Source of the DNA: Patescibacteria group bacterium
GTDB lineage: Bacteria > Patescibacteriota > Minisyncoccia > 2-02-FULL-40-12
DNA length: 64,000 nucleotides
Assembly: GCA_038062015.1 (NCBI GenBank)
Contig: JBBTXZ010000003.1
Coordinates: 7,857-71,856, forward strand
Direction of reading: 5' to 3'
Shown: positions 28,318-59,281 of the stretch, in pieces
How the letters are laid out: each line of letters begins with the position of its first letter
Numbering within the stretch: position 1 is the stretch's first letter
Notes under the pieces: model-generated
The model's input: the letters and a program-made list of their open reading frames with translations, nothing else
Databases searched by the model: none
What the model was told of the DNA's origin: nothing
Translations under genes and position numbers: made by a program

Positions 28318-29814
28318 TTATTCAATTATTATTGCTATATTTATTCTATTAGCGTCTTTCGGAATCTTCCTTAGCCAAAAAGGAGGAAAAATCCGGGCTG
28401 ATTCTATTTCGTTCAAACCGCTGAAATAAGAATCAGCTTCACTTATCCTTTTACCGGCAATATCCGAAATTATCTTCTTTTTGTCTATATTTTGGATAGT
28501 CTGGCCGGAAGAAACCAGTTTAAAAGATAATTCCCTTTTTTCTTTGTTCAATTTCGACTGATCATAATTTATTTTAATACCGCTTGCCACTAATAAATTC
28601 TGGGAATTTTTAACATACTGGGAAATAAAATCAACAATATCGCTCTCTTTAAAAACTACCAGGCTCGCTTTAATTTTAAAATCAACCCTAAATTCTTTAG
28701 TTAGATCGCCGGCGTTATTGGAATCACCGGTTTTTTCTATTTCCATGTTCAAAACTTCATCCAAAATTTTAAAATTACCAAGTAAAGCAAGCTCTGCCTT
28801 TATTTGGCTGACTCCTTCTTCTTTTATAATTTCTTCGGCTTTTTCTAAATCCTCTTTGCTTACGAAACTGGACTGGCCGACAAACCCTCCGGAAAGTTTC
28901 TCAAATGATTTTGCGTAAAAACCCTGATATTTTGGATTACCCAGAAACCCAGGTATCCTGAAATCGGAAGGCTCAATATTGTATTCTTCGCCAGCCCGAT
29001 CAGCGACGATTTCAACCTCTATCTCGCCGGGCTTAAACTCACTGCCGATTATCTTACCGGGCACAGTTACGGCCTTTGGGATTCTAAAAGTCAGCCCTTC
29101 GGCTGTTTGAAGCCTTGTCGTGGCCACTAAAATCTGGGGCGAAGCGCTGAAATTATTGTAAATGAAGGCCCTGCCTCTGGCTTTCTGAAAAACATCTTTC
29201 TCGGCGCTTGAAGCAAATGTTTTAGAAATTAATTTTTCAACTTCAATCCATTGGCCCGGCACCATTCCGTAGATTTCATCGTTTTTAGTGATATCAGTTG
29301 AAACGACCACTGGTAAATTAATCGAAAAATCGACTTTACGGGGAATTATTTTTATATTCACTTCGTTTAAAGAAGAAAGGGCGATGAAAATAAATAAACC
29401 GATGGCAGAACCGAGAAGAGCCAGGATGAATTTTTTAGAATCTTTTTGCTTTAGCCTTGCCAGACGGGGCGGGACGCTTAGCGTCCCAAAGGGCCCCGCT
29501 GAACGGGCCACCGGTGTTTTTTCTGAAAACTCTGAATAGAAAGAAAGCAGGTCTTTGTCTTTCTTGGTGTTATTACCTTTAGCGGCAGTCCCGCTCGGCG
29601 GGGCGGCGGCTTTAGCATTTTGCCCGGAAGAAATTATTGAAACTTCTTTTTTTAACTTGTCGAAATGGGCTTTCAACTTTTCCAATTTGTTCTTGTTTTT
29701 AAAGACCGGGTTTGATTTTGGGACAACTAAAATTAAGCTGTCAGATCCGGATTCTTCGACTGCCTCCAAAATGTCTTCGAAATTGTCGCCCGAAGCGATG
29801 TTAATGATTTTCAT
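28318..29814 (-). CDS. Hypothetical single-pass membrane protein inserted upstream of infA in the ribosomal cluster
   Basis: Cytoplasmic N-domain, TM helix LALLGSAIGLFIFIAL, large extracytoplasmic domain. No family recognised. Confidence 0.4.
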   Translation of the reverse strand: MKIINIASGDNFEDILEAVEESGSDSLILVVPKSNPVFKNKNKLEKLKAHFDKLKKEVSIISSGQNAKAAAPPSGTAAKGNNTKKDKDLLSFYSEFSEKTPVARSAGPFGTLSVPPRLARLKQKDSKKFILALLGSAIGLFIFIALSSLNEVNIKIIPRKVDFSINLPVVVSTDITKNDEIYGMVPGQWIEVEKLISKTFASSAEKDVFQKARGRAFIYNNFSASPQILVATTRLQTAEGLTFRIPKAVTVPGKIIGSEFKPGEIEVEIVADRAGEEYNIEPSDFRIPGFLGNPKYQGFYAKSFEKLSGGFVGQSSFVSKEDLEKAEEIIKEEGVSQIKAELALLGNFKILDEVLNMEIEKTGDSNNAGDLTKEFRVDFKIKASLVVFKESDIVDFISQYVKNSQNLLVASGIKINYDQSKLNKEKRELSFKLVSSGQTIQNIDKKKIISDIAGKRISEADSYFSGLNEIESARIFPPFWLRKIPKDANRINIAIIIE

Positions 29815-31100
29815 AGTTTTATAAATTTTTTATCTTGACTTACTCTTGAGACTTTTTTGTGTTTTTCTTCCTCTTTTTTAACTTCTTCCATATTTATTTC
29901 CATTCCTTTTTCCTTAGCAATGTCTTGTACAATCTCAACCCCCACACCAATGCTTGACTGAGTATTAAAAACATAGGCGCCAGGAATAAATTTATACCCT
30001 TTATTTTTAAATTCTTCGACATCTTTTTCAATTTTTGGTATTTCTCTGCTAAGTAATTTTTCAAATTTTTGAAACTCTTCATTAAATACTTCCAATACTT
30101 TTTCCTCATTTTTCTCCAGATCGGGGTAATACTCTTTATAAATGTTTATTATTGTTTTAACAGAACGTTGTAAAAAATCATCGTGCAAATTCAGCTTTTT
30201 TGAATGCCTCATTATTTTTCTGATTAATTTTCTTAAAATATATCCTCGTCCAAGATTCGATGGCATCACTCCGTCAGAAATTACAAAAACGCCTGCTTTC
30301 AGATGATCAGAGATTATTCTTTCAAATTTTTGATTAGATTGATAATCGTATAAATTTTTGTTTCTTAATTCAGTTATTATCGGCGAGAACAAATCAGTTT
30401 CAAAAACTGATTTGCTGCCTTGTAAAACCATAACCAATCTTTCCAATCCCATTCCCGTATCAACCCCCTTTCTTTGAAGGGGAATTAAATGTTTTTCTTT
30501 ATTGCAGTAATATTCATTAAAAACAATATTCCAAACTTCAATCCCATCGATATGAATTTCGGTGGTCGGCCCACAAGGACCTTCCTCGCCGGTTGGACCC
30601 CAAAAATTATCTTTTATTTCGCCGAAAAATATTTTTTCCTCGGGTATGCCCAGTGATTTCCAGATTTCCAACGACTCTTGGTCAATTGAAATATCATTTT
30701 TATCGTCGCCTTTGAAAACCGAAATTTTTATTCTTCTTAGAGGCACGCCAAAATCGTTGACTATCAAATCATAGCTGTGCTTTATCGCTTCTTTTTTAAA
30801 ATATGAATCCTTGGCTTCCGGAAACTTGAAAGAAAAATTGCCGAGCATTTCAAAAAATGTCAGGTGGCTTTCATCACCGACTTCATCAATGTCCACGGTT
30901 CGCAGACATTTTTGAATAGAAGCTATTTTGTTTCCATAAGGCGAGTCGTTATCCAGATAATATTTCTTAAATTGCTGCATTCCGGCAGTAGTAAAAAGAA
31001 CCGACTTATCTTCTGGAACCAATAAAGAAGAAGGTATTATTTTATGTCCCCGTTTCTCAAAAAAATCCAAGAATTTTTTGCGGATCTCTTGATGAGTCAT
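29811..31100 (-). CDS. alaS: Alanyl-tRNA synthetase, short form (catalytic plus tRNA-recognition domains only, 429 aa)
   Basis: FLDFFEKRGHKIIPSSLLVPEDKSVLFTTAGMQQFK and FFEMLGNFSF class II motifs. SDHLKAGVFVISDGVMPSNLGRGYILRKLIRK. No editing or C-Ala domain. Confidence 0.75.
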   Translation of the reverse strand: MTHQEIRKKFLDFFEKRGHKIIPSSLLVPEDKSVLFTTAGMQQFKKYYLDNDSPYGNKIASIQKCLRTVDIDEVGDESHLTFFEMLGNFSFKFPEAKDSYFKKEAIKHSYDLIVNDFGVPLRRIKISVFKGDDKNDISIDQESLEIWKSLGIPEEKIFFGEIKDNFWGPTGEEGPCGPTTEIHIDGIEVWNIVFNEYYCNKEKHLIPLQRKGVDTGMGLERLVMVLQGSKSVFETDLFSPIITELRNKNLYDYQSNQKFERIISDHLKAGVFVISDGVMPSNLGRGYILRKLIRKIMRHSKKLNLHDDFLQRSVKTIINIYKEYYPDLEKNEEKVLEVFNEEFQKFEKLLSREIPKIEKDVEEFKNKGYKFIPGAYVFNTQSSIGVGVEIVQDIAKEKGMEINMEEVKKEEEKHKKVSRVSQDKKFIKL

Positions 31101-52589: not shown

Positions 52590-52837
52590 AAAAAGCCTTC
52601 CTTTTTTAATAATCCAATTTTCGCCCTATTCCCGTATGCGTAACCGCCGATTTTGCCATCCGACCTTATCACCCGATGGCAGGGTACATTTTTAAAAGGA
52701 TTTTTATTTAAAACATTGCCAACGGCCCGGCAAGCGCGCGGCGAACCCGCAAATCTAGCCACCTCTTTATAATTTAAAACTTTTCCTTTAGGAATTTTCT
52801 TTACTATATTATACACTTTTTTTTGAAATTCAGTCAT
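52586..52837 (-). CDS. ogt: Methylated-DNA-protein-cysteine methyltransferase, C-terminal (DNA-binding/active-site) domain only
   Basis: VPCHRVIRSDGKIGGY with the PCHR active site. Confidence 0.75.
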   Translation of the reverse strand: MTEFQKKVYNIVKKIPKGKVLNYKEVARFAGSPRACRAVGNVLNKNPFKNVPCHRVIRSDGKIGGYAYGNRAKIGLLKKEGFL

Positions 52838-54543
52838 TTTAAAAACTTAAGCATATCTTGCCACTTTCTGATATTTAGAATATCTTTCGCTTCTGCCCAG
52901 CCACGCCTGGCTTGAGCAATTCCCAATTCCAAATACTGAAAATGCAAAATACTGTGAGCGTCTGAATCAATTGACAGTTTCACTCCGGCTTCAACCGCTT
53001 TTCTGATATGCTGATCTTTCAAATCCAGCCGGCTCGGATAAGCGTCTATTTCCAAAACGGTTTTGGTTCTTTTGGCCGCCTTGATTAAAGCATCAATATC
53101 TATTTTATAGGATTCTCTTTTCTGAATCACCCGGCCGGTCGGATGAAAGATTACATCAATGTTCGGATTTTCCATCGCTCTAACTATTCTTTGGGTCTGT
53201 TCTTTTTCAGATAAATTAAAGTTAGAATGAACCGCTCCGCCGGCAACATCCAGTTTAGCTAAAATTTCATCGGAAATATCCATCTGGCCATCTTTCAAAA
53301 TATTAACCTCGGCGCCTTTTAAAATTTTAATACCGCTGACTTGTTTCTGGACTTCGTCTATTTCTCTCATTTGCCGAAGAAGTTTCTTCTCATCCAAGCC
53401 GCCGGTCATGGCCAGACTCTTTGTATGGTCGGTGATGACGATATATTCCAAGTCTGCTTTTTTGGCGGCTTCGGCCATTTCCTTGATTGAATTCTGGCCA
53501 TCAGTCCAGTTGGTTTGAACCTGCAGATCGCCCTTCAACGAACCATATTCAATTAATTTTGGCAGTTTGCCTTCTTGGGCCGCTTTAATTTCACCAGAAT
53601 TTATTCTGATTTCCGGCGGAATCCATTCAAGGCCGAGTTTTTTATAAATTTCTTCTTCCGTTTTCCCGGCCGCTAATTTTTTGCCCTTATATAATCCATA
53701 TTCATTCAGTTTATATCCCTTCTTGATTGCAATTTCGCGCAAAGCGATATTGTGGTACTTATCGCCGGTGAAATATTGCAAAGCCGCACCGAATGACTTC
53801 GGCTCTAAAACCCTCAAGTCCGCGTCCATTCCGTTGTTAAGCCGAATATTGGCTTTGGTTGAGCCCTTGGCGTAGATGTAGCTGGCTTCCGGCATCTTAA
53901 CAAAATAATCAATCACTTTTTCCGGCTCTTTGGAAATCGCCAAAATATCCAAGTCCCCCACTGTCTCCTGCATCCGTCTTATTGAACCGGCCGGCTCGGC
54001 AATCTCAACATAAGGCAAAGATCTTAAACGTTCTAAAATAGAGTTGACTAAAGGCCAGACAAAACCCAAAATAAAACGGCCTTGGCCGCTTTTTAAAAAT
54101 TCAATGCCTTTTAAAATTTTCTCCTCCGACTTTTCACCAAAACCTTCGAGGTCTCTTAGCTTCCCGGCTTTAGCCGCTTTTTCAAGCTCGCCGATTGTTT
54201 TGATTCCAAGTTTCTTATAAAGCTTATAGACGCTTTTAGGGCCGAGGCCTTCAACAGAAGTCAACTCGCTGACATCAACCGGCACCTGCTTTTTTAGATG
54301 TTCGTAATCTTTAATCCGCTTTGTTTTTATGTATTCTTCAATCTTTTCGGCAATCCCCTGCCCTATTCCTGAAATATCCATCAGAGCTTTCAAACCGCCT
54401 TTTTTGTAAATGTCCCTTACATCTTCTTCCAAGGTCTCAATTATTAACGCCGCTTTCTCATACGCCCGCGGCTTAAAAGGAACCTCTTTCATTTCCAGTA
54501 ACATGGCTATCTCAAAAAGGATTTTAGAGATTTCTTCATTCAT
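52834..54543 (-). CDS. polX: DNA polymerase X family with PHP domain
   Basis: HhH/8-kDa and palm motifs (GIG, GSIRR..ETVGDLDIL). C-terminal PHP histidines. Confidence 0.8.
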   Translation of the reverse strand: MNEEISKILFEIAMLLEMKEVPFKPRAYEKAALIIETLEEDVRDIYKKGGLKALMDISGIGQGIAEKIEEYIKTKRIKDYEHLKKQVPVDVSELTSVEGLGPKSVYKLYKKLGIKTIGELEKAAKAGKLRDLEGFGEKSEEKILKGIEFLKSGQGRFILGFVWPLVNSILERLRSLPYVEIAEPAGSIRRMQETVGDLDILAISKEPEKVIDYFVKMPEASYIYAKGSTKANIRLNNGMDADLRVLEPKSFGAALQYFTGDKYHNIALREIAIKKGYKLNEYGLYKGKKLAAGKTEEEIYKKLGLEWIPPEIRINSGEIKAAQEGKLPKLIEYGSLKGDLQVQTNWTDGQNSIKEMAEAAKKADLEYIVITDHTKSLAMTGGLDEKKLLRQMREIDEVQKQVSGIKILKGAEVNILKDGQMDISDEILAKLDVAGGAVHSNFNLSEKEQTQRIVRAMENPNIDVIFHPTGRVIQKRESYKIDIDALIKAAKRTKTVLEIDAYPSRLDLKDQHIRKAVEAGVKLSIDSDAHSILHFQYLELGIAQARRGWAEAKDILNIRKWQDMLKFLK

Positions 54544-56679: not shown

Positions 56680-59205
56680 TCAGAGCAATTGCCCCTGTTT
56701 TGAAGCATTTTCCCTCTCGTCAGCTGTAAAAATCCTTATTTTTCCGTACTCGCCGTCATAACCGGGCTCAATATGAACCCGTCCATCTCTAACTTTAGTA
56801 ATACCCTCAGCGATTTCGGGCAGGGTCGATTTTTTCAAATTATCGGCCGAAGCATCAAGTAAAACATTGAACTCATTGCCAAAACTTCTAATCAATTTTT
56901 CATATTCCTGTAAAACTCTTTTAGGCCAGCCAGTATTAGAAGTGACACTAAGGCCTATTGAATCAGAAATTATTTGGTCTAAAGGAATAACATTTTTATA
57001 AGACACGCGGCTGACGGGTTTAAGGCCGCTTGGGCGGTCGGCAAGCTCGGCCACTCTGGCCAAAACGCCGACGGTTAGAGGCCTTTTACATTTAGGGCAG
57101 AGGAAATTATGTTTTTTTGTTTCTTCCGGCTCGAACGAAATATTGCATAATCGATGGCCGTCATAGTGATATTTTCCCTCTTCCGGAAAAAACTCCACGG
57201 TAAAAAGAAATTTTTTCGGATCTTTTGATTTTATTGATTCAATAATTTTGTAATAATCAAGTTCAGCGTCGAAGACATTAGCCTCCCGCCCGATTCGGGT
57301 CAACGAATGAGAATCGGAATTAGAAACTAAAGTAACGTTGTCTAATTTGGAAAGGCGCCAATTCATTGCCGGATCCGAAGAAAGACCGGTCTCAACCGCG
57401 TAAATATATTTGGACAAATCATCAAAGCATTCTTCAATTGAATCAAAACCTGATTTGGAGCCGAAAATAGAGAACCAGGGTGTCCAACAATTATGAACTG
57501 TAGCGAACTCCGTGACGTATGAATTATCATCTTCAACTTCCAGATTATAAACCGGACCTTTATAATCTTTTTCTTCAATATCCCTAACCGGCAGGTAAAC
57601 ATGATCTTTATCAATCCATCCGTGTTTAATTTTTGTTTTATAATTAAACTGTTTAAATTCCGGCTCCGACAGTAGACTAAATTTATCATCAAAAAACGTA
57701 AGACGGTTTAAGACATAACAATCGCCATTGGCCCTAATTATTCTATTTTGATATTTGTGTTTTCCCCTACTAAAATGTGACTTCATTGAATCAACGTAAA
57801 TTGACGGGACTATTCCTAACTTTAACAAAACAATTTTCATTTGATTCATTAATTCTTTTGATACGGTATAACCTTTATCTCCCCGCCACCATCCTTTAAA
57901 TAATTCTGCCAGTAATTCATCCGACAAACCTAAAAACCAGCTTGGCAACATTTTTGTATGAGCATCCTTAACTTCTTCTGAACTGTAAAAAAGTTTTTCA
58001 AAAAGCTCCTGAACTATTTTTGAGTAAAATACCAATTCTATTCCGTTCTCTTCTCTTCTTTTATAATTTTTGATTCCAAAAACAAAATCCATCAAGCTAA
58101 CCACGTCGGCAACGTAATTTTCTTCTTTTTTGCTAAACATAAAACCTATGGCATCTCTACCGTTAGTATACCCCTCTGCCATGTAGTATCCGATTAATCT
58201 GCTAAAATCCTCATTCACGTTAATTATATCCGGAACTGCTTTTGTTCGATTCCCTCTCATTAATAGTCCTTTCTGAACTGGGATTAATGATATATGACGA
58301 AGCGCCTCGGCCACAGATATAACGGAGTGATTTGAATATGCATTATTAAAACGAGGAAAAACTAAAACATCCCCCTTTTCAATATTTTCTGCCGTAACCC
58401 AAGAATGTTTATATGATTTATAGTGTTTTTTTGTACATTTTAAATAAGTTTCATGTACCGGCTTGCATATTCCTTTAGACCAGTGGCAGTTTTTTTTAGT
58501 TTTAATAACATAAAATGGATGTTCGGGCGTTACCGTCAATCCTTCTCTGAAATAATATGGTTTAATAGAAAAAACTTTTCCTTTATAAGGTCTTCTTAAA
58601 ACTTCTGTAACTTTCCTCCATCTATTTTTATGAGTAAAAACGCATTCTCCTTCTTTAATGTTTTGAATTTTTGTCAATAAGTTATTTTTTGTATGAACGG
58701 CTGTATCTGGTAATAAGCAATGAGCCGGAATAACCATTATATCCGGTGAAATTTCAAGACAGATTTCCAAAAACTTTTTTGAATCAAGACCTAGAATCGG
58801 CCGGCCGTCGGATTTCAGATTGCCGATGAAAGAAAGCTTGGCGTTTATTTTTTCGGCTGTTTCAATATCCGGAACTAAATAAAGATGATGAACTCTCCTC
58901 ACCTTCCCGCCTTTTGAGTAAATGCAGCTTATTTCGCCGGTCAGCATGAAGCGGGGCTCAGCTTCATTATCCAAGCGGCCGAATGAATCAACTTTGAATT
59001 CCTTTTTCAGCTTGAAAAGGCCCGGTTCAGCCGGCTCCAATTTTTGTTTTATTTCTTTCAGCCACAAAGGATGAGTCAAATCGCCGGTCCCCAAAACATG
59101 AATACCCTTGATTTTTGCCCACTTATCCAGATTTTCAAGCACCATTTCCGGCGACACCGCCCGCGAGTATTTTGAGTGGATCTGCATGTCTACGACTAAT
59201 TTCAT
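56680..59205 (-). CDS. EndoQ-like PHP-domain nuclease (Zn-ribbon C-terminus) interrupted by a 410-aa intein
   Basis: Extein MKLVVDMQIHSKYS...IPAH | CWTPWF...NSDSHS...CPKCKRP is about 431 aa, matching EndoQ/TIGR00375 architecture. Intein described separately. Confidence 0.6.
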   Translation of the reverse strand: MKLVVDMQIHSKYSRAVSPEMVLENLDKWAKIKGIHVLGTGDLTHPLWLKEIKQKLEPAEPGLFKLKKEFKVDSFGRLDNEAEPRFMLTGEISCIYSKGGKVRRVHHLYLVPDIETAEKINAKLSFIGNLKSDGRPILGLDSKKFLEICLEISPDIMVIPAHCLLPDTAVHTKNNLLTKIQNIKEGECVFTHKNRWRKVTEVLRRPYKGKVFSIKPYYFREGLTVTPEHPFYVIKTKKNCHWSKGICKPVHETYLKCTKKHYKSYKHSWVTAENIEKGDVLVFPRFNNAYSNHSVISVAEALRHISLIPVQKGLLMRGNRTKAVPDIINVNEDFSRLIGYYMAEGYTNGRDAIGFMFSKKEENYVADVVSLMDFVFGIKNYKRREENGIELVFYSKIVQELFEKLFYSSEEVKDAHTKMLPSWFLGLSDELLAELFKGWWRGDKGYTVSKELMNQMKIVLLKLGIVPSIYVDSMKSHFSRGKHKYQNRIIRANGDCYVLNRLTFFDDKFSLLSEPEFKQFNYKTKIKHGWIDKDHVYLPVRDIEEKDYKGPVYNLEVEDDNSYVTEFATVHNCWTPWFSIFGSKSGFDSIEECFDDLSKYIYAVETGLSSDPAMNWRLSKLDNVTLVSNSDSHSLTRIGREANVFDAELDYYKIIESIKSKDPKKFLFTVEFFPEEGKYHYDGHRLCNISFEPEETKKHNFLCPKCKRPLTVGVLARVAELADRPSGLKPVSRVSYKNVIPLDQIISDSIGLSVTSNTGWPKRVLQEYEKLIRSFGNEFNVLLDASADNLKKSTLPEIAEGITKVRDGRVHIEPGYDGEYGKIRIFTADERENASKQGQLL
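57490..58719 (-). mobile_element. Intein with LAGLIDADG homing-endonuclease domain (aa 163-572 of the host ORF)
   Basis: N-terminal splice-junction Cys in AH|CLLPDT. C-terminal TVHN|C. Two LAGLIDADG motifs: LIGYYMAEGY and LAELFKGWWRGDG. Confidence 0.75.
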
Positions 59206-59207
59206 GA

Positions 59208-59281
59208 TGTCCCCGGCGCGATTCGAACGCGCAATCTTCGGCTTCGGAGGCCGACGCTTTATCCAGTTAAGCTACGGGGAC
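59208..59281 (-). tRNA. tRNA-Arg (anticodon CCG). CCA is not encoded.
   Basis: Minus-strand GTCCCCG...TAGCTTAACTGGATAAAGC...TCGGC-CTCCGAA-GCCGA...GCGCGTTCGAATCGCGC...CGGGGAC-A cloverleaf. Confidence 0.8.

What the first reader, a model, noticed from the sequence alone, without database searches (positions are those of the whole stretch)
56680..59205. LAGLIDADG intein inside an EndoQ-like PHP nuclease
The 841-aa ORF splits cleanly into an extein of about 431 aa and a 410-aa insertion (aa 163-572, nt 57490-58719). The extein has the N-terminal MQIHSKYS PHP-like start and the C-terminal CPKC zinc ribbon typical of EndoQ/TIGR00375 nucleases. The insertion is bounded by canonical intein junctions (H|CLLPDT ... 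TVHN|CWTPW) and contains two LAGLIDADG motifs (LIGYYMAEGY, LAELFKGWWRGDG). Inteins are rare in bacteria with reduced genomes, and this host protein is not one of the usual intein targets (DnaB, RecA, RIR1, GyrB, DnaE). It is also a second selfish genetic element in this window.
Basis: partly seen in the sequence, partly recalled or inferred. Interest (0 to 1): 0.6.

Follow-up and report, generated by a model that had tools for sequence, protein, structure and literature searches.

The report
Homing-endonuclease intein splitting an EndoQ repair nuclease
A DNA-repair nuclease gene (Endonuclease Q family) of an uncultured groundwater bacterium is interrupted at its catalytic histidine by a self-splicing, self-copying protein element (an intein); the call is correct, but this intein occupies the same site in many public homologues, so it is ordinary.

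Summary
The 841-aa ORF (56680-59205, minus strand) consists of a 431-aa Endonuclease Q (EndoQ/TIGR00375/MJ0043-family) extein and a 410-aa insertion (aa 163-572, nt 57490-58719). The insertion is a canonical class-1 intein with a nested two-motif LAGLIDADG homing endonuclease: Cys1, TPEH block B, VHN|C C-terminal junction. The spliced extein aligns end to end with crystallised PfuEndoQ. The intein sits directly after the residue equivalent to the Zn ligand His139. The closest orthologues (81-91% identical, same gene neighbourhood) are exactly 431 aa and lack the insertion.

The rarity argument does not hold. All 120 best full-length database hits carry a homologous intein at the same site. They come from Parcubacteria/Patescibacteria, Omnitrophota and an Asgard-type archaeon. 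A further copy sits directly after His139 in Thermococcus barophilus EndoQ. Two bacterial homologues are already named 'Mja hyp1 intein', and Pfam names the host's C-terminal domain MJ0043_C.

This is a new member of a known intein allele. Mild points of interest: presence/absence polymorphism among close relatives, a short co-conversion-like tract at the junction, and at least three intein sites in EndoQ. The EndoQ papers held in the searchable library do not mention inteins. Splicing and homing activity are inferred, not shown.

The parts
56680..59205 (-). Precursor ORF, 841 aa: EndoQ-family nuclease interrupted by an intein
   Evidence: The ATG at 59205 is supported by alignment with 431-aa orthologues that begin MKLVAD/MKIVAD and with PfuEndoQ from residue 6. 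The database copy P0001 is annotated 20 aa too short.
58720..59205 (-). N-extein, aa 1-162: first part of the PHP barrel. It carries H10, E91, H106, R135 and H162, the equivalents of PfuEndoQ H10, E76, H84, R114 and H139. Position 8 is Gln instead of His.
   Evidence: Alignments; invariant columns; residue roles from PMC5961232.
57490..58719 (-). Intein, 410 aa (aa 163-572): HINT splicing domain with a nested LAGLIDADG homing endonuclease
   Evidence: Pfam and NCBIfam hits. Absent from orthologues. The predicted fold matches the TliVMA, PI-PkoII, PI-SceI and PI-PfuI inteins.
58717..58719 (-). Cys1 of the intein (block A nucleophile)
   Evidence: Cys in all 120 homologous inteins and invariant in A2 as C163.
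58519..58530 (-). Block B motif TPEH (T226, H229)
   Evidence: T226, E228, H229 and P230 are invariant in A2; family conservation.
58435..58488 (-). Cys/His-rich module CHWSKGICKPVHETYLKC after block B; possibly a small Zn-binding knuckle (inferred)
   Evidence: The pattern [C/H]-x4-9-C-x2-4-[C/H]-x4-18-C is present in 104 of 120 family inteins.
58168..58197 (-). First LAGLIDADG motif LIGYYMAEGY (catalytic-position Glu344)
   Evidence: G339, Y340, E344 and G345 are invariant.
57868..57912 (-). Second LAGLIDADG motif LAELFKGWWRGDKGY (catalytic-position Asp443)
   Evidence: W439, W440, G442, D443 and G445 are invariant. It aligns with the PI-PkoII motif leGyfiGDG.
57514..57552 (-). Block F VYNLEVEDDNSYV
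   Evidence: V552, N554 and Y563 are invariant. It aligns with block F of PI-PkoII and the MJ0781 KlbA intein.
57487..57498 (-). Block G V-H-N plus the +1 Cys of the C-extein (splice junction)
   Evidence: HN|C in all 120 intein-bearing homologues; H571, N572 and C573 are invariant.
56680..57489 (-). C-extein, aa 573-841 plus stop: rest of the PHP domain (T575, E605, D631, H633), the Zn-binding domain and the C-terminal helical domain. It ends in KQGQLL.
57088..57162 (-). Zn-binding segment DGHRLC...CPKC. The ligand set is H/C3 here, against C4 in PfuEndoQ.
   Evidence: Alignment; H684, C703 and C706 invariant, C687 nearly invariant; PfuEndoQ C249/C252/C268/C271 from PMC5961232.
59208..59281 (-). 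tRNA-Arg(CCG) ending 2 nt upstream of the ORF's ATG. It is context, not part of the intein.
   Evidence: The same arrangement occurs in the intein-free orthologous loci L083 and L085.

Best explanation
The gene encodes an Endonuclease Q-family DNA-repair nuclease. Its PHP active site is split, directly after the Zn-ligand histidine (H162, equivalent to PfuEndoQ His139), by a 410-aa class-1 intein that carries a two-motif LAGLIDADG homing endonuclease.

Shown here: the insertion is absent from syntenic orthologues. All splicing-block and endonuclease residues that are conserved in the family are present. The spliced product is a full-length, colinear EndoQ.

Inferred from established intein chemistry: after translation, Cys163 makes an N-S acyl shift. 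Cys573 (+1) attacks the thioester. Asn572 cyclises with help from His571. An S-N shift then leaves a 431-aa EndoQ with His162-Cys163 joined. Until splicing occurs, the enzyme should be inactive, because His139-equivalent and Thr142-equivalent residues lie on opposite sides of the insert.

Inferred from the biology of LAGLIDADG inteins: at the DNA level, the excised intein's endonuclease cuts intein-free endoQ alleles at ...CCG GCT CAC|GCC TGG ACT.... Recombinational repair then copies in the intein, together with a few flanking codons including the Cys +1 codon. This would explain the patchy, cross-domain distribution.
For: - ORF and junction coordinates are as stated.
- Intein_splicing and LAGLIDADG_3 score above the Pfam cutoffs. 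intein_Cterm scores above the NCBIfam cutoff.
- The spliced extein matches PfuEndoQ at E 1e-50 and is colinear across the junction, 'ipahCwtpw' against 'gpahAftpw'.
- The 120 best extein hits are all intein-free. The 27 closest (81-91% identity over at least 95% of the query) comprise nineteen 431-aa proteins and eight of 411-441 aa.
- Gene order is identical in the intein-free loci L083 and L086 (GT4-FtsW-Wzy-tRNA-EndoQ-S8-MFS). The downstream part is also shared by L085, and PolX lies downstream in L083 and L085.
- The 120 best full-length hits all have C1...HN|C at the same site. Family-wide invariant residues C163, T226/H229, E344, D443 and H571-N572-C573 are all present here.
- The AlphaFold model has pLDDT 83.6. 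It matches PfuEndoQ at TM 0.82 with the intein as a gap. It also matches the HE-associated inteins TliVMA, PI-PkoII, PI-SceI and PI-PfuI at E 1e-7 to 1e-17.
- His139 is a Zn ligand and H139A nearly abolishes activity (PMC5961232).
- Junction codons CAT|TGT TGG ACA match the intein-bearing allele L088. The nearest intein-free relatives read CAC|GCC TGG ACT, and Ala GCC against Cys TGT differs at all three codon positions.
Against: - No experiment was done. Splicing and DNA cleavage are inferred from conserved residues only.
- Block F has Asn where many class-1 inteins have Asp. This Asn is conserved across the family.
- The window's intein deviates from the family at five otherwise conserved positions (at least 90%), for example S173 where 99% have Cys. 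Partial decay of the endonuclease cannot be excluded.
- The nearest sampled intein is only 57.5% identical, so no donor is identified. Gain in this lineage versus loss in its relatives is not formally resolved.
- The low GC3 of the intein (0.27 against 0.42) recurs in two of the three other hosts examined. It is therefore not specific evidence of recent gain.
- The extein scores below the curated TIGR00375 cutoff (192.6 against 326.6 bits).
- His8 of the PHP motif is Gln here.
Confidence: 0.9

Rival explanations
1. The 410 aa are an ordinary, lineage-specific domain of this nuclease family and are not excised.
For: None found.
Against: Syntenic orthologues at 81-91% identity are exactly 431 aa and lack the insertion. 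PfuEndoQ and seven other family members align across the junction without a gap. The insert matches intein and LAGLIDADG models. It matches solved intein structures. It would separate active-site residues His139 and Thr142.
Confidence: 0.01
2. It is a real intein that still splices, but its homing endonuclease is inactive. It would be a vertically inherited passenger in the decay phase of the homing cycle rather than an actively mobile element.
For: The window's intein deviates at five positions conserved in at least 90% of the family, including S173 next to the first LAGLIDADG helix, where 99% have Cys. No close donor exists in 5.8 billion proteins; the best is 57.5% identical. Many characterised intein endonucleases are inactive (general knowledge of the homing cycle).
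Against: Both catalytic-position acidic residues (E344, D443) and the surrounding motif residues are invariant and present. The endonuclease domain is full length and modelled with high confidence. The intein is confined to one lineage among 27 close intein-free relatives. There is also a co-conversion-like junction. Both points suggest a relatively recent invasion.
Confidence: 0.3
3. The intein was ancestral in this clade and has been precisely lost from the relatives. The window would then show retention, not gain.
For: 10 of 120 intein-free homologues have Cys at +1. One is P0123/L086 in the same clade, with the same CAT|TGT junction codons as intein-bearing alleles. This looks like the footprint of an earlier occupant.
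Against: It needs many independent precise deletions, or one loss followed by spread of the empty allele, among 27 close relatives. Intein and extein identities to other carriers are uncorrelated (r = 0.04), which argues against simple co-inheritance.
Confidence: 0.2
4. It is a metagenome assembly chimera that joins an intein fragment into an EndoQ gene.
For: The source is a MAG (GCA_964359985.1).
Against: The identical protein occurs on 5 contigs, including an NCBI MAG assembly and an ENA metagenome assembly. The reading frame is continuous with canonical junctions. The same architecture occurs in more than 120 other proteins.
Confidence: 0.01

Closest known systems
Intein at the His139 site of Thermococcus barophilus CH5 EndoQ (TBCH5v1_0436, ALM74405.1; UniProt A0A0S1X9D0 'DOD-type homing endonuclease domain-containing protein')
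   Same: The host family and insertion point are the same: LIGPAH|C...LHN|CFTPW against VIPAH|C...VHN|CWTPW. The architecture is the same, HINT plus two LAGLIDADG motifs plus a Cys-rich module. The motifs are homologous (FCRLVGYFLAEG, GWWKGDRG, VYNLEVEEDSSYV). Identity to the window's intein is 39% over its full length.
   Different: The host is archaeal and hyperthermophilic, and its extein is only about 32% identical. The intein is 398 aa against 410 aa. Its module is CCCC where the window has CCHC.
'Mja hyp1 intein' of Methanocaldococcus jannaschii MJ0043 (the InBase/Swiss-Prot name is recalled from memory)
   Same: Two close bacterial homologues (P0012, P0256) are annotated 'Mja hyp1 intein'. 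Pfam names the host's C-terminal domain MJ0043_C (PF27218). MJ0043 therefore belongs to the same host family and carries an intein.
   Different: I could not retrieve the MJ0043 sequence. The genome scan returned only intein-free loci. Whether its intein is at the same site (a) or at site b or c was therefore not tested.
PfuEndoQ / Endonuclease Q (PF1551; PDB 5zb8, 7k30-7k33)
   Same: The spliced extein is colinear with it at E 1e-50 and about 35% identity. The model superposes at TM 0.82. Metal ligands H10, E76, H84, H139 and D193 are conserved, as are R114, H195, T142 and E167.
   Different: PfuEndoQ has no intein and has Ala at +1. In the window protein His8 is Gln. The first Zn-ribbon ligand is His rather than Cys. 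The C-terminus ends in QxxLL rather than the archaeal tail. The score is below the TIGR00375 curated cutoff.
Archaeal homing-endonuclease inteins of known structure (TliVMA/PhoVMA 7qsu/7qst, PI-PkoII 2cw7, PI-SceI 1vde, PI-PfuI 1dq3)
   Same: They share the HINT fold with a nested double-LAGLIDADG endonuclease. Foldseek E-values are 1e-7 to 1e-17. The sequence match to PI-PkoII is E 7.5e-5 and covers both LAGLIDADG motifs and block F.
   Different: They sit in different host proteins (VMA ATPase, DNA polymerase, RNR). Sequence identity is 12-17%. They are not alleles of this intein.
Related inteins in other hosts: NifU/IscU-like proteins (P0282-P0301) and a pyridine-nucleotide-disulphide (thioredoxin-reductase-like) oxidoreductase (P0339)
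   Same: These are the next most similar inteins, at 28-36% identity over the full 410 aa. P0339 also has the Cys-rich module.
   Different: They occupy different host genes and insertion sites, so they are non-allelic.

Membership tests
Class-1 intein (HINT superfamily) | In-frame insertion that is absent from orthologues and interrupts a conserved host motif | tested here: met
   431-aa syntenic orthologues lack it. It lies directly after the His139-equivalent Zn ligand.
Class-1 intein (HINT superfamily) | Block A nucleophile (Cys/Ser) at intein position 1 | tested here: met
   Cys163 is present, and Cys occupies this position in all 120 homologues.
Class-1 intein (HINT superfamily) | Block B TxxH | tested here: met
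   T226-P-E-H229, invariant in A2.
Class-1 intein (HINT superfamily) | Block G penultimate His, terminal Asn, and a Cys/Ser/Thr at +1 | tested here: met
   H571-N572|C573. HN|C is present in 120 of 120 homologues. NCBIfam intein_Cterm scores 20.5 bits against a cutoff of 15.6.
Class-1 intein (HINT superfamily) | Curated N-terminal splicing-region model above cutoff | tested here: not met
   TIGR01445 intein_Nterm scores 22.0 bits, below its 24.5 cutoff. Pfam Vint scores 22.5, below 27. Pfam Intein_splicing (PF14890) does pass, at 40 bits against 35.8.
Class-1 intein (HINT superfamily) | HINT fold | tested here: met
   The AlphaFold model matches solved inteins and mini-inteins.
Class-1 intein (HINT superfamily) | Autocatalytic protein splicing | not testable with these tools
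   This needs expression followed by SDS-PAGE or mass spectrometry.
LAGLIDADG (DOD) homing endonuclease, double-motif monomer | Two LAGLIDADG helices, each with an acidic residue at the catalytic position | tested here: met
   LIGYYMAEG (E344) and GWWRGDKG (D443), both invariant in the family. Pfam LAGLIDADG_3 scores 35.1 bits against a cutoff of 22.5.
LAGLIDADG (DOD) homing endonuclease, double-motif monomer | Alpha-beta-beta-alpha-beta-beta-alpha fold nested in the HINT domain | tested here: met
   Foldseek matches to TliVMA, PI-SceI, PI-PfuI and I-DmoI.
LAGLIDADG (DOD) homing endonuclease, double-motif monomer | Site-specific cleavage of the intein-free allele | not testable with these tools
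   There is only indirect support. The distribution is patchy across bacteria and archaea. Junction codons are shared with other carriers.
Endonuclease Q (EndoQ / TIGR00375 / MJ0043 family) | Full-length colinearity with characterised EndoQ (PHP + Zn-binding + C-terminal helical domains) | tested here: met
   phmmer E 1.1e-50 over residues 6-415 against 5zb8 residues 6-382; TM 0.82.
Endonuclease Q (EndoQ / TIGR00375 / MJ0043 family) | Zn ligands His8, His10, Glu76, His84, His139, Asp193, plus Arg114 and His195 | tested here: inconclusive
   Seven of the eight are conserved. His8 is Gln in this protein and in its closest relatives P0121, P0123, P0124 and P0148. H8A retained about half of the activity in PfuEndoQ (PMC5961232).
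Endonuclease Q (EndoQ / TIGR00375 / MJ0043 family) | Curated NCBIfam TIGR00375 score at or above the cutoff | tested here: not met
   The extein scores 192.6 bits and the precursor 233.5 bits, against a cutoff of 326.6. It is therefore a divergent (bacterial, CPR) branch of the family. NCBI nevertheless names close intein-free homologues 'endonuclease Q family protein' (P0214, P0232).
Endonuclease Q (EndoQ / TIGR00375 / MJ0043 family) | Cleavage 5' of deaminated bases (dU, dI, dX) and AP sites | not testable with these tools
   A biochemical assay is needed.
EndoQ site-a intein allele (after the His139 equivalent) | Same insertion point and homologous intein sequence | tested here: met
   120 of 120 full-length hits have the same junction, at 50-57% intein identity. 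T. barophilus carries it at 39% identity. All 14 EndoQ-hosted proteins among the representatives examined in which both junctions could be read have it at this site.
'Mja hyp1' intein (MJ0043) specifically | Same insertion site as in MJ0043 | not tested
   The MJ0043 sequence could not be obtained. Only annotation names link them.

The most novel reading that the evidence does not exclude
The intein may be more than a passenger. It could act as a conditional, redox- or metal-sensitive switch. Both splice-junction nucleophiles are cysteines. The intein also carries a conserved Cys/His (CCHC/CCCC) module and sits on a Zn-ligand histidine. Under this reading, maturation of the deaminated-base repair nuclease would be gated by the oxidative, nitrosative or metal conditions that also cause base deamination. 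A second, weaker novel reading is that the presence/absence polymorphism in one aquifer, together with the co-conversion-like junction, records ongoing intein homing in natural CPR populations.
Probability: 0.07. Interest if true: 0.55.

Novelty: new member of a known kind. Interest (0 to 1): 0.22.

Why it matters
As an individual finding it matters little. It is one more copy of an intein allele that is widespread in public data and partly annotated already.

It has three modest uses:
1. Annotation. The deposited gene model starts 20 aa too late and removes a catalytic histidine. RefSeq's T. barophilus entry starts inside the intein.
2. EndoQ research. The EndoQ papers held in the library describe the enzyme as restricted to Thermococcales, some methanogens and a few bacteria, and do not mention inteins. 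Here the family is abundant in CPR bacteria, Omnitrophota and DPANN archaea, and it hosts inteins at three or more active-site positions.
3. A natural test case. Closely related intein-plus and intein-minus alleles occur in the same aquifer, which would allow study of homing in ultra-small bacteria.

Tried and rejected
1. Retrieving MJ0043 to test whether the 'Mja hyp1' intein is at the same site.
It used an alignment led by PfuEndoQ and returned 80 intein-free loci with no Methanocaldococcus.
   - Literature searches for MJ0043, 'Mja Hyp', 'hyp1 intein', intein plus EndoQ, and intein plus 'endonuclease Q' found nothing relevant.
   - The two InBase-era papers are not held. The supplements of Novikova et al. 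are not held.
2. Looking for a closer intein donor. The intein-only word-index search and the exhaustive phmmer search of 1.84 billion representatives found nothing above 57.5% identity.
3. GC content as evidence of recent acquisition. I rejected this as non-specific, because the intein is also AT-richer than its extein in L088 and L090.
4. A sliding-window nucleotide-identity profile for a long co-conversion tract. It showed no clear tract. Only the roughly 12 nt at the junction are carrier-like.
5. The exact 841-aa protein is not on record, because the deposited model starts at Met21.
6. Rfam found only two tRNAs. Pfam scans of 20 further ORFs showed housekeeping genes plus one Xer-like recombinase. 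I did not pursue this further.
Full report
**Observation.** The window has an 841-aa ORF at 56680..59205 on the minus strand.
- The string H|CLLPDT begins at aa 163 and TVHN|CWTPW ends the insert at aa 572.
- The quoted motifs are present. The second LAGLIDADG motif actually reads LAELFKGWWRGDKGY.
- The insert has lower GC than the rest of the gene: GC 0.33 against 0.42, and GC3 0.27 against 0.42.

**The host protein.**
- With the 410 aa removed, the protein aligns from residue 6 to 415 with crystallised Pyrococcus furiosus Endonuclease Q (5zb8, 7k30-33) at E 1e-50.
- There is no gap at the junction: 'vipahCwtpwfsif' aligns with 'ligpahAftpwtsly'.
- It covers the whole TIGR00375 model. Its score of 192.6 bits is below the curated cutoff of 326.6, so it belongs to a divergent bacterial branch.
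- Pfam's precomputed domain for all homologues is PF27218, named MJ0043_C.
- The residue before the insert, H162, is the equivalent of PfuEndoQ His139. This is a Zn ligand, and its H139A mutant is almost inactive. His139 and Thr142, which lies three residues after the insert, both line the lesion pocket (PMC5961232).
- The other catalytic residues are conserved: H10, E76, H84, R114, D193 and H195 in Pfu numbering.
- His8 is Gln in this protein and in its closest relatives P0121, P0123, P0124 and P0148. H8A retains about half of the activity in PfuEndoQ.
- The first ligand of the Zn ribbon is His rather than Cys.

**The insert is an intein.**
- Pfam Intein_splicing (E 4.6e-10) and LAGLIDADG_3 (E 1.6e-8) pass their cutoffs. 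NCBIfam intein_Cterm passes and intein_Nterm falls just short.
- The best solved sequence relative is the PI-PkoII intein at E 7.5e-5. The alignment covers both LAGLIDADG motifs and block F.
- I aligned the window's intein with the 119 other homologous inteins recovered (one further hit, P0001, is the window's own protein). The conserved family residues are C1, T-x-E-H-P (block B), G-Y-Y/F..E-G, W-W-R-G-D-x-G-x-T, V-Y-N-L-E-V..D-N-S-Y (block F) and V-H-N. All of them are present in the window's copy.
- The window's copy differs at only five positions that are at least 90% conserved.
- An AlphaFold2 model of the precursor (54-sequence alignment, mean pLDDT 83.6) has its main low-confidence segments at the two junctions; the others are a 3-residue loop (675-677) and the C-terminal tail.
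- Foldseek matches the model to PfuEndoQ at TM 0.82 normalised to the target, with the intein as a gap. It also matches the homing-endonuclease inteins TliVMA, PhoVMA, PI-PkoII, PI-SceI and PI-PfuI at E 1e-7 to 1e-17.

**The refutation test fails.**
- A search with the extein alone returned 120 best hits, all intein-free. The 27 closest (81-91% identity over at least 95% of the query) comprise nineteen proteins of exactly 431 aa and eight of 411-441 aa.
- Two of the loci fetched, L083 and L086, have the same gene order as the window: glycosyltransferase-4, FtsW, Wzy-like protein, EndoQ, S8 peptidase, MFS transporter. The third, L085, shares the part from the tRNA through EndoQ, S8 peptidase and MFS. 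A tRNA-Arg abuts the EndoQ start in L083 and L085 and lies further upstream in L086. PolX lies downstream in L083 and L085.
- L085 comes from the same Hainich H51 groundwater well as the window's own sequence.
- Their coding DNA is 77-84% identical to the window's extein.
- The 410 aa are therefore not a family domain.

**The intein is not rare.**
- All 120 best full-length hits, out of 2825 with E at or below 1e-5, carry a homologous intein of 403-441 aa at the same site, with C1...HN|C.
- Named sources include Parcubacteria, Paceibacterota, Wildermuthbacteria, Nealsonbacteria, Gribaldobacteria, Omnitrophota and Njordarchaeales. The intein-only search added hits named Pacearchaeota and Woesearchaeota, for which I did not check the host or the insertion site.
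- Two hits are already named 'Mja hyp1 intein' (P0012, P0256).
- An exhaustive phmmer search of 1.84 billion representatives found 156 proteins at E at or below 1e-30. Among the best 150, 23 are EndoQ-hosted. All 14 in which both junctions could be read carry the intein at this site.
- One representative cluster contains Thermococcus barophilus CH5 TBCH5v1_0436. Its sequence reads LIGPAH|CVPPDT...GTLHN|CFTPWTALYKEYDSLK. That is an intein directly after His139 of a Thermococcales EndoQ, 39% identical to the window's intein.
- Some homologues carry a second intein at another active-site motif. P0042 has one at GLS|SDP, and P0049 has similar length and domain content but was not read. P0100 has one at SDAH|S, next to D193/H195, and P0102 is of similar length.
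- CPR bacteria are also known to be rich in LAGLIDADG elements in rRNA introns (PMC11270868).
- The two primary EndoQ papers I read do not mention inteins. The only two papers in the library that hold both 'intein' and 'EndoQ' were not opened and do not carry either term in the title or abstract.

**Evolutionary state.**
- The nearest intein anywhere is only 57.5% identical. Carriers' exteins are 52-65% identical to the window's. The two identities are uncorrelated, r = 0.04.
- The window's extein nevertheless has 27 intein-free relatives at 81-91% identity.
- The simplest reading is invasion of this lineage from an unsampled donor. Retention with repeated loss is the alternative.
- At the junction, the window reads CAT|TGT TGG ACA, like the carrier L088. 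Its nearest intein-free relatives read CAC|GCC TGG ACT, and the Ala and Cys codons differ at all three positions. The surrounding codons follow the relatives. This is what a short co-conversion tract would look like, but the sample is small.
- Ten of 120 intein-free homologues have Cys at +1. One is L086, with CAT|TGT. These may be footprints of earlier occupancy.
- The low GC3 of the intein recurs in two of three other carriers. It is a general trait, not proof of recent gain.

**Mechanism (inferred).** Standard class-1 splicing would restore His162-Cys163 and hence the PHP active site. The steps are the Cys163 N-S shift, attack by Cys573, Asn572 cyclisation aided by His571, and the S-N shift. 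The LAGLIDADG domain, with E344 and D443 intact, would cut empty alleles and spread by recombinational repair. Neither activity can be tested with the tools available here.

**Verdict.** The novelty class is a new member of a known kind, namely the EndoQ site-a intein allele. Whether M. jannaschii MJ0043's 'hyp1' intein sits at this same site could not be tested, because the sequence could not be retrieved. Interest is low to modest.

Noticed in passing
window 59208-59281 (-) and the ORF start at 59205: tRNA-Arg(CCG) ends 2 nt before the EndoQ ATG. The same 1-3 nt spacing occurs in the intein-free orthologous loci L083 and L085. After tRNA 3' processing the mRNA would be essentially leaderless. 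The only Shine-Dalgarno-like bases (GGGGA) lie inside the tRNA acceptor stem. The upstream Wzy-like ORF overlaps the tRNA by about 22 nt.
   Followed up: partly
window 59146-59205 (-); protein P0001 / locus L001 3001-5466: The deposited gene model for this protein (821 aa) starts at Met21. It omits the first 20 residues, including the PHP-motif His10. Orthologues and PfuEndoQ support the upstream ATG at 59205.
   Followed up: yes
window 59182-59184 (-), aa 8: The first His of the PHP 'HxH' motif (PfuEndoQ His8, a Zn ligand) is Gln in this protein and in its closest relatives P0121, P0123, P0124 and P0148. More distant CPR homologues keep His.
   Followed up: partly
window 56683-56703 (-), C-terminal residues SKQGQLL: Most bacterial homologues examined end in a conserved Q-x-x-L-[LF] tail (...KQGQLL, ...SQKTLF). 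It resembles the bacterial beta-clamp-binding motif QL[SD]LF. It may be the counterpart of the PCNA-binding tail of Thermococcales EndoQ.
   Followed up: no
proteins P0042, P0049, P0100, P0102 (homologues, not in the window): Some EndoQ homologues carry two inteins. P0042 has a second at GLS|C...GN|SDP, and P0100 has one at SDAH|C...HN|S next to catalytic D193/H195. P0049 and P0102 are of similar length; their second inteins were not read. EndoQ therefore has at least three intein insertion sites, all in active-site motifs.
   Followed up: partly
window 58435-58488 (-), intein residues 78-95: A Cys/His module (CHWSKGICKPVHETYLKC) follows block B. About 87% of the intein family keeps a CCCC/CCHC-type pattern. 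One sub-group replaces it with a Cys-free NDRYxGxSxYYGEQLKR segment. It is possibly a Zn knuckle used in DNA recognition.
   Followed up: partly
NCBIfam TIGR00375 against intein residues 272-409 (window about 57493-57906): The intein alone scores 38.6 bits (E 7.9e-10) against positions 5-134 of the TIGR00375 host-family model. This suggests the model's seed alignment contains an intein-bearing member, presumably MJ0043, with intein residues in match columns.
   Followed up: no
window 52834-54543 (-): A PolX-type polymerase (HHH_8, thumb and PHP domains) lies three genes downstream of EndoQ. The EndoQ / MFS / PolX proximity recurs in the relatives L083, L085 and L088. In L090 an Fpg glycosylase is nearby. 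This may be a base-repair gene neighbourhood.
   Followed up: no
window 29811-31100 (-) and 28318-29814 (-): The alanyl-tRNA synthetase ORF covers only the N-terminal catalytic part (429 aa, model positions 1-432 of 847). It overlaps by 4 nt a 498-aa ORF that has no Pfam or NCBIfam match. AlaRS may be split or truncated.
   Followed up: partly
protein P0472 (RefSeq WP_235507206.1, Thermococcus barophilus): RefSeq annotates a 443-aa 'TIGR00375 family protein' that begins inside the intein. The intein-bearing EndoQ of this cultured archaeon is therefore mis-modelled there.
   Followed up: partly
protein P0339 (metagenomic, 723 aa): A related intein (36% identity) interrupts a pyridine-nucleotide-disulphide (thioredoxin-reductase-like) oxidoreductase within the sequence SYCAT|C...HN|CDGFF, which looks like a redox-active CxxC motif. 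The same intein lineage may therefore target another catalytic Cys site.
   Followed up: no
loci L003-L082 (genome-contig scan): EndoQ-family genes occur in many phyla. Examples are Hadarchaeota, Aenigmarchaeota, Bathyarchaeia, WOR-3, Omnitrophota, Saccharibacteria, Planctomycetia and Desulfovibrionales. This is broader than the distribution described in the original EndoQ papers.
   Followed up: partly
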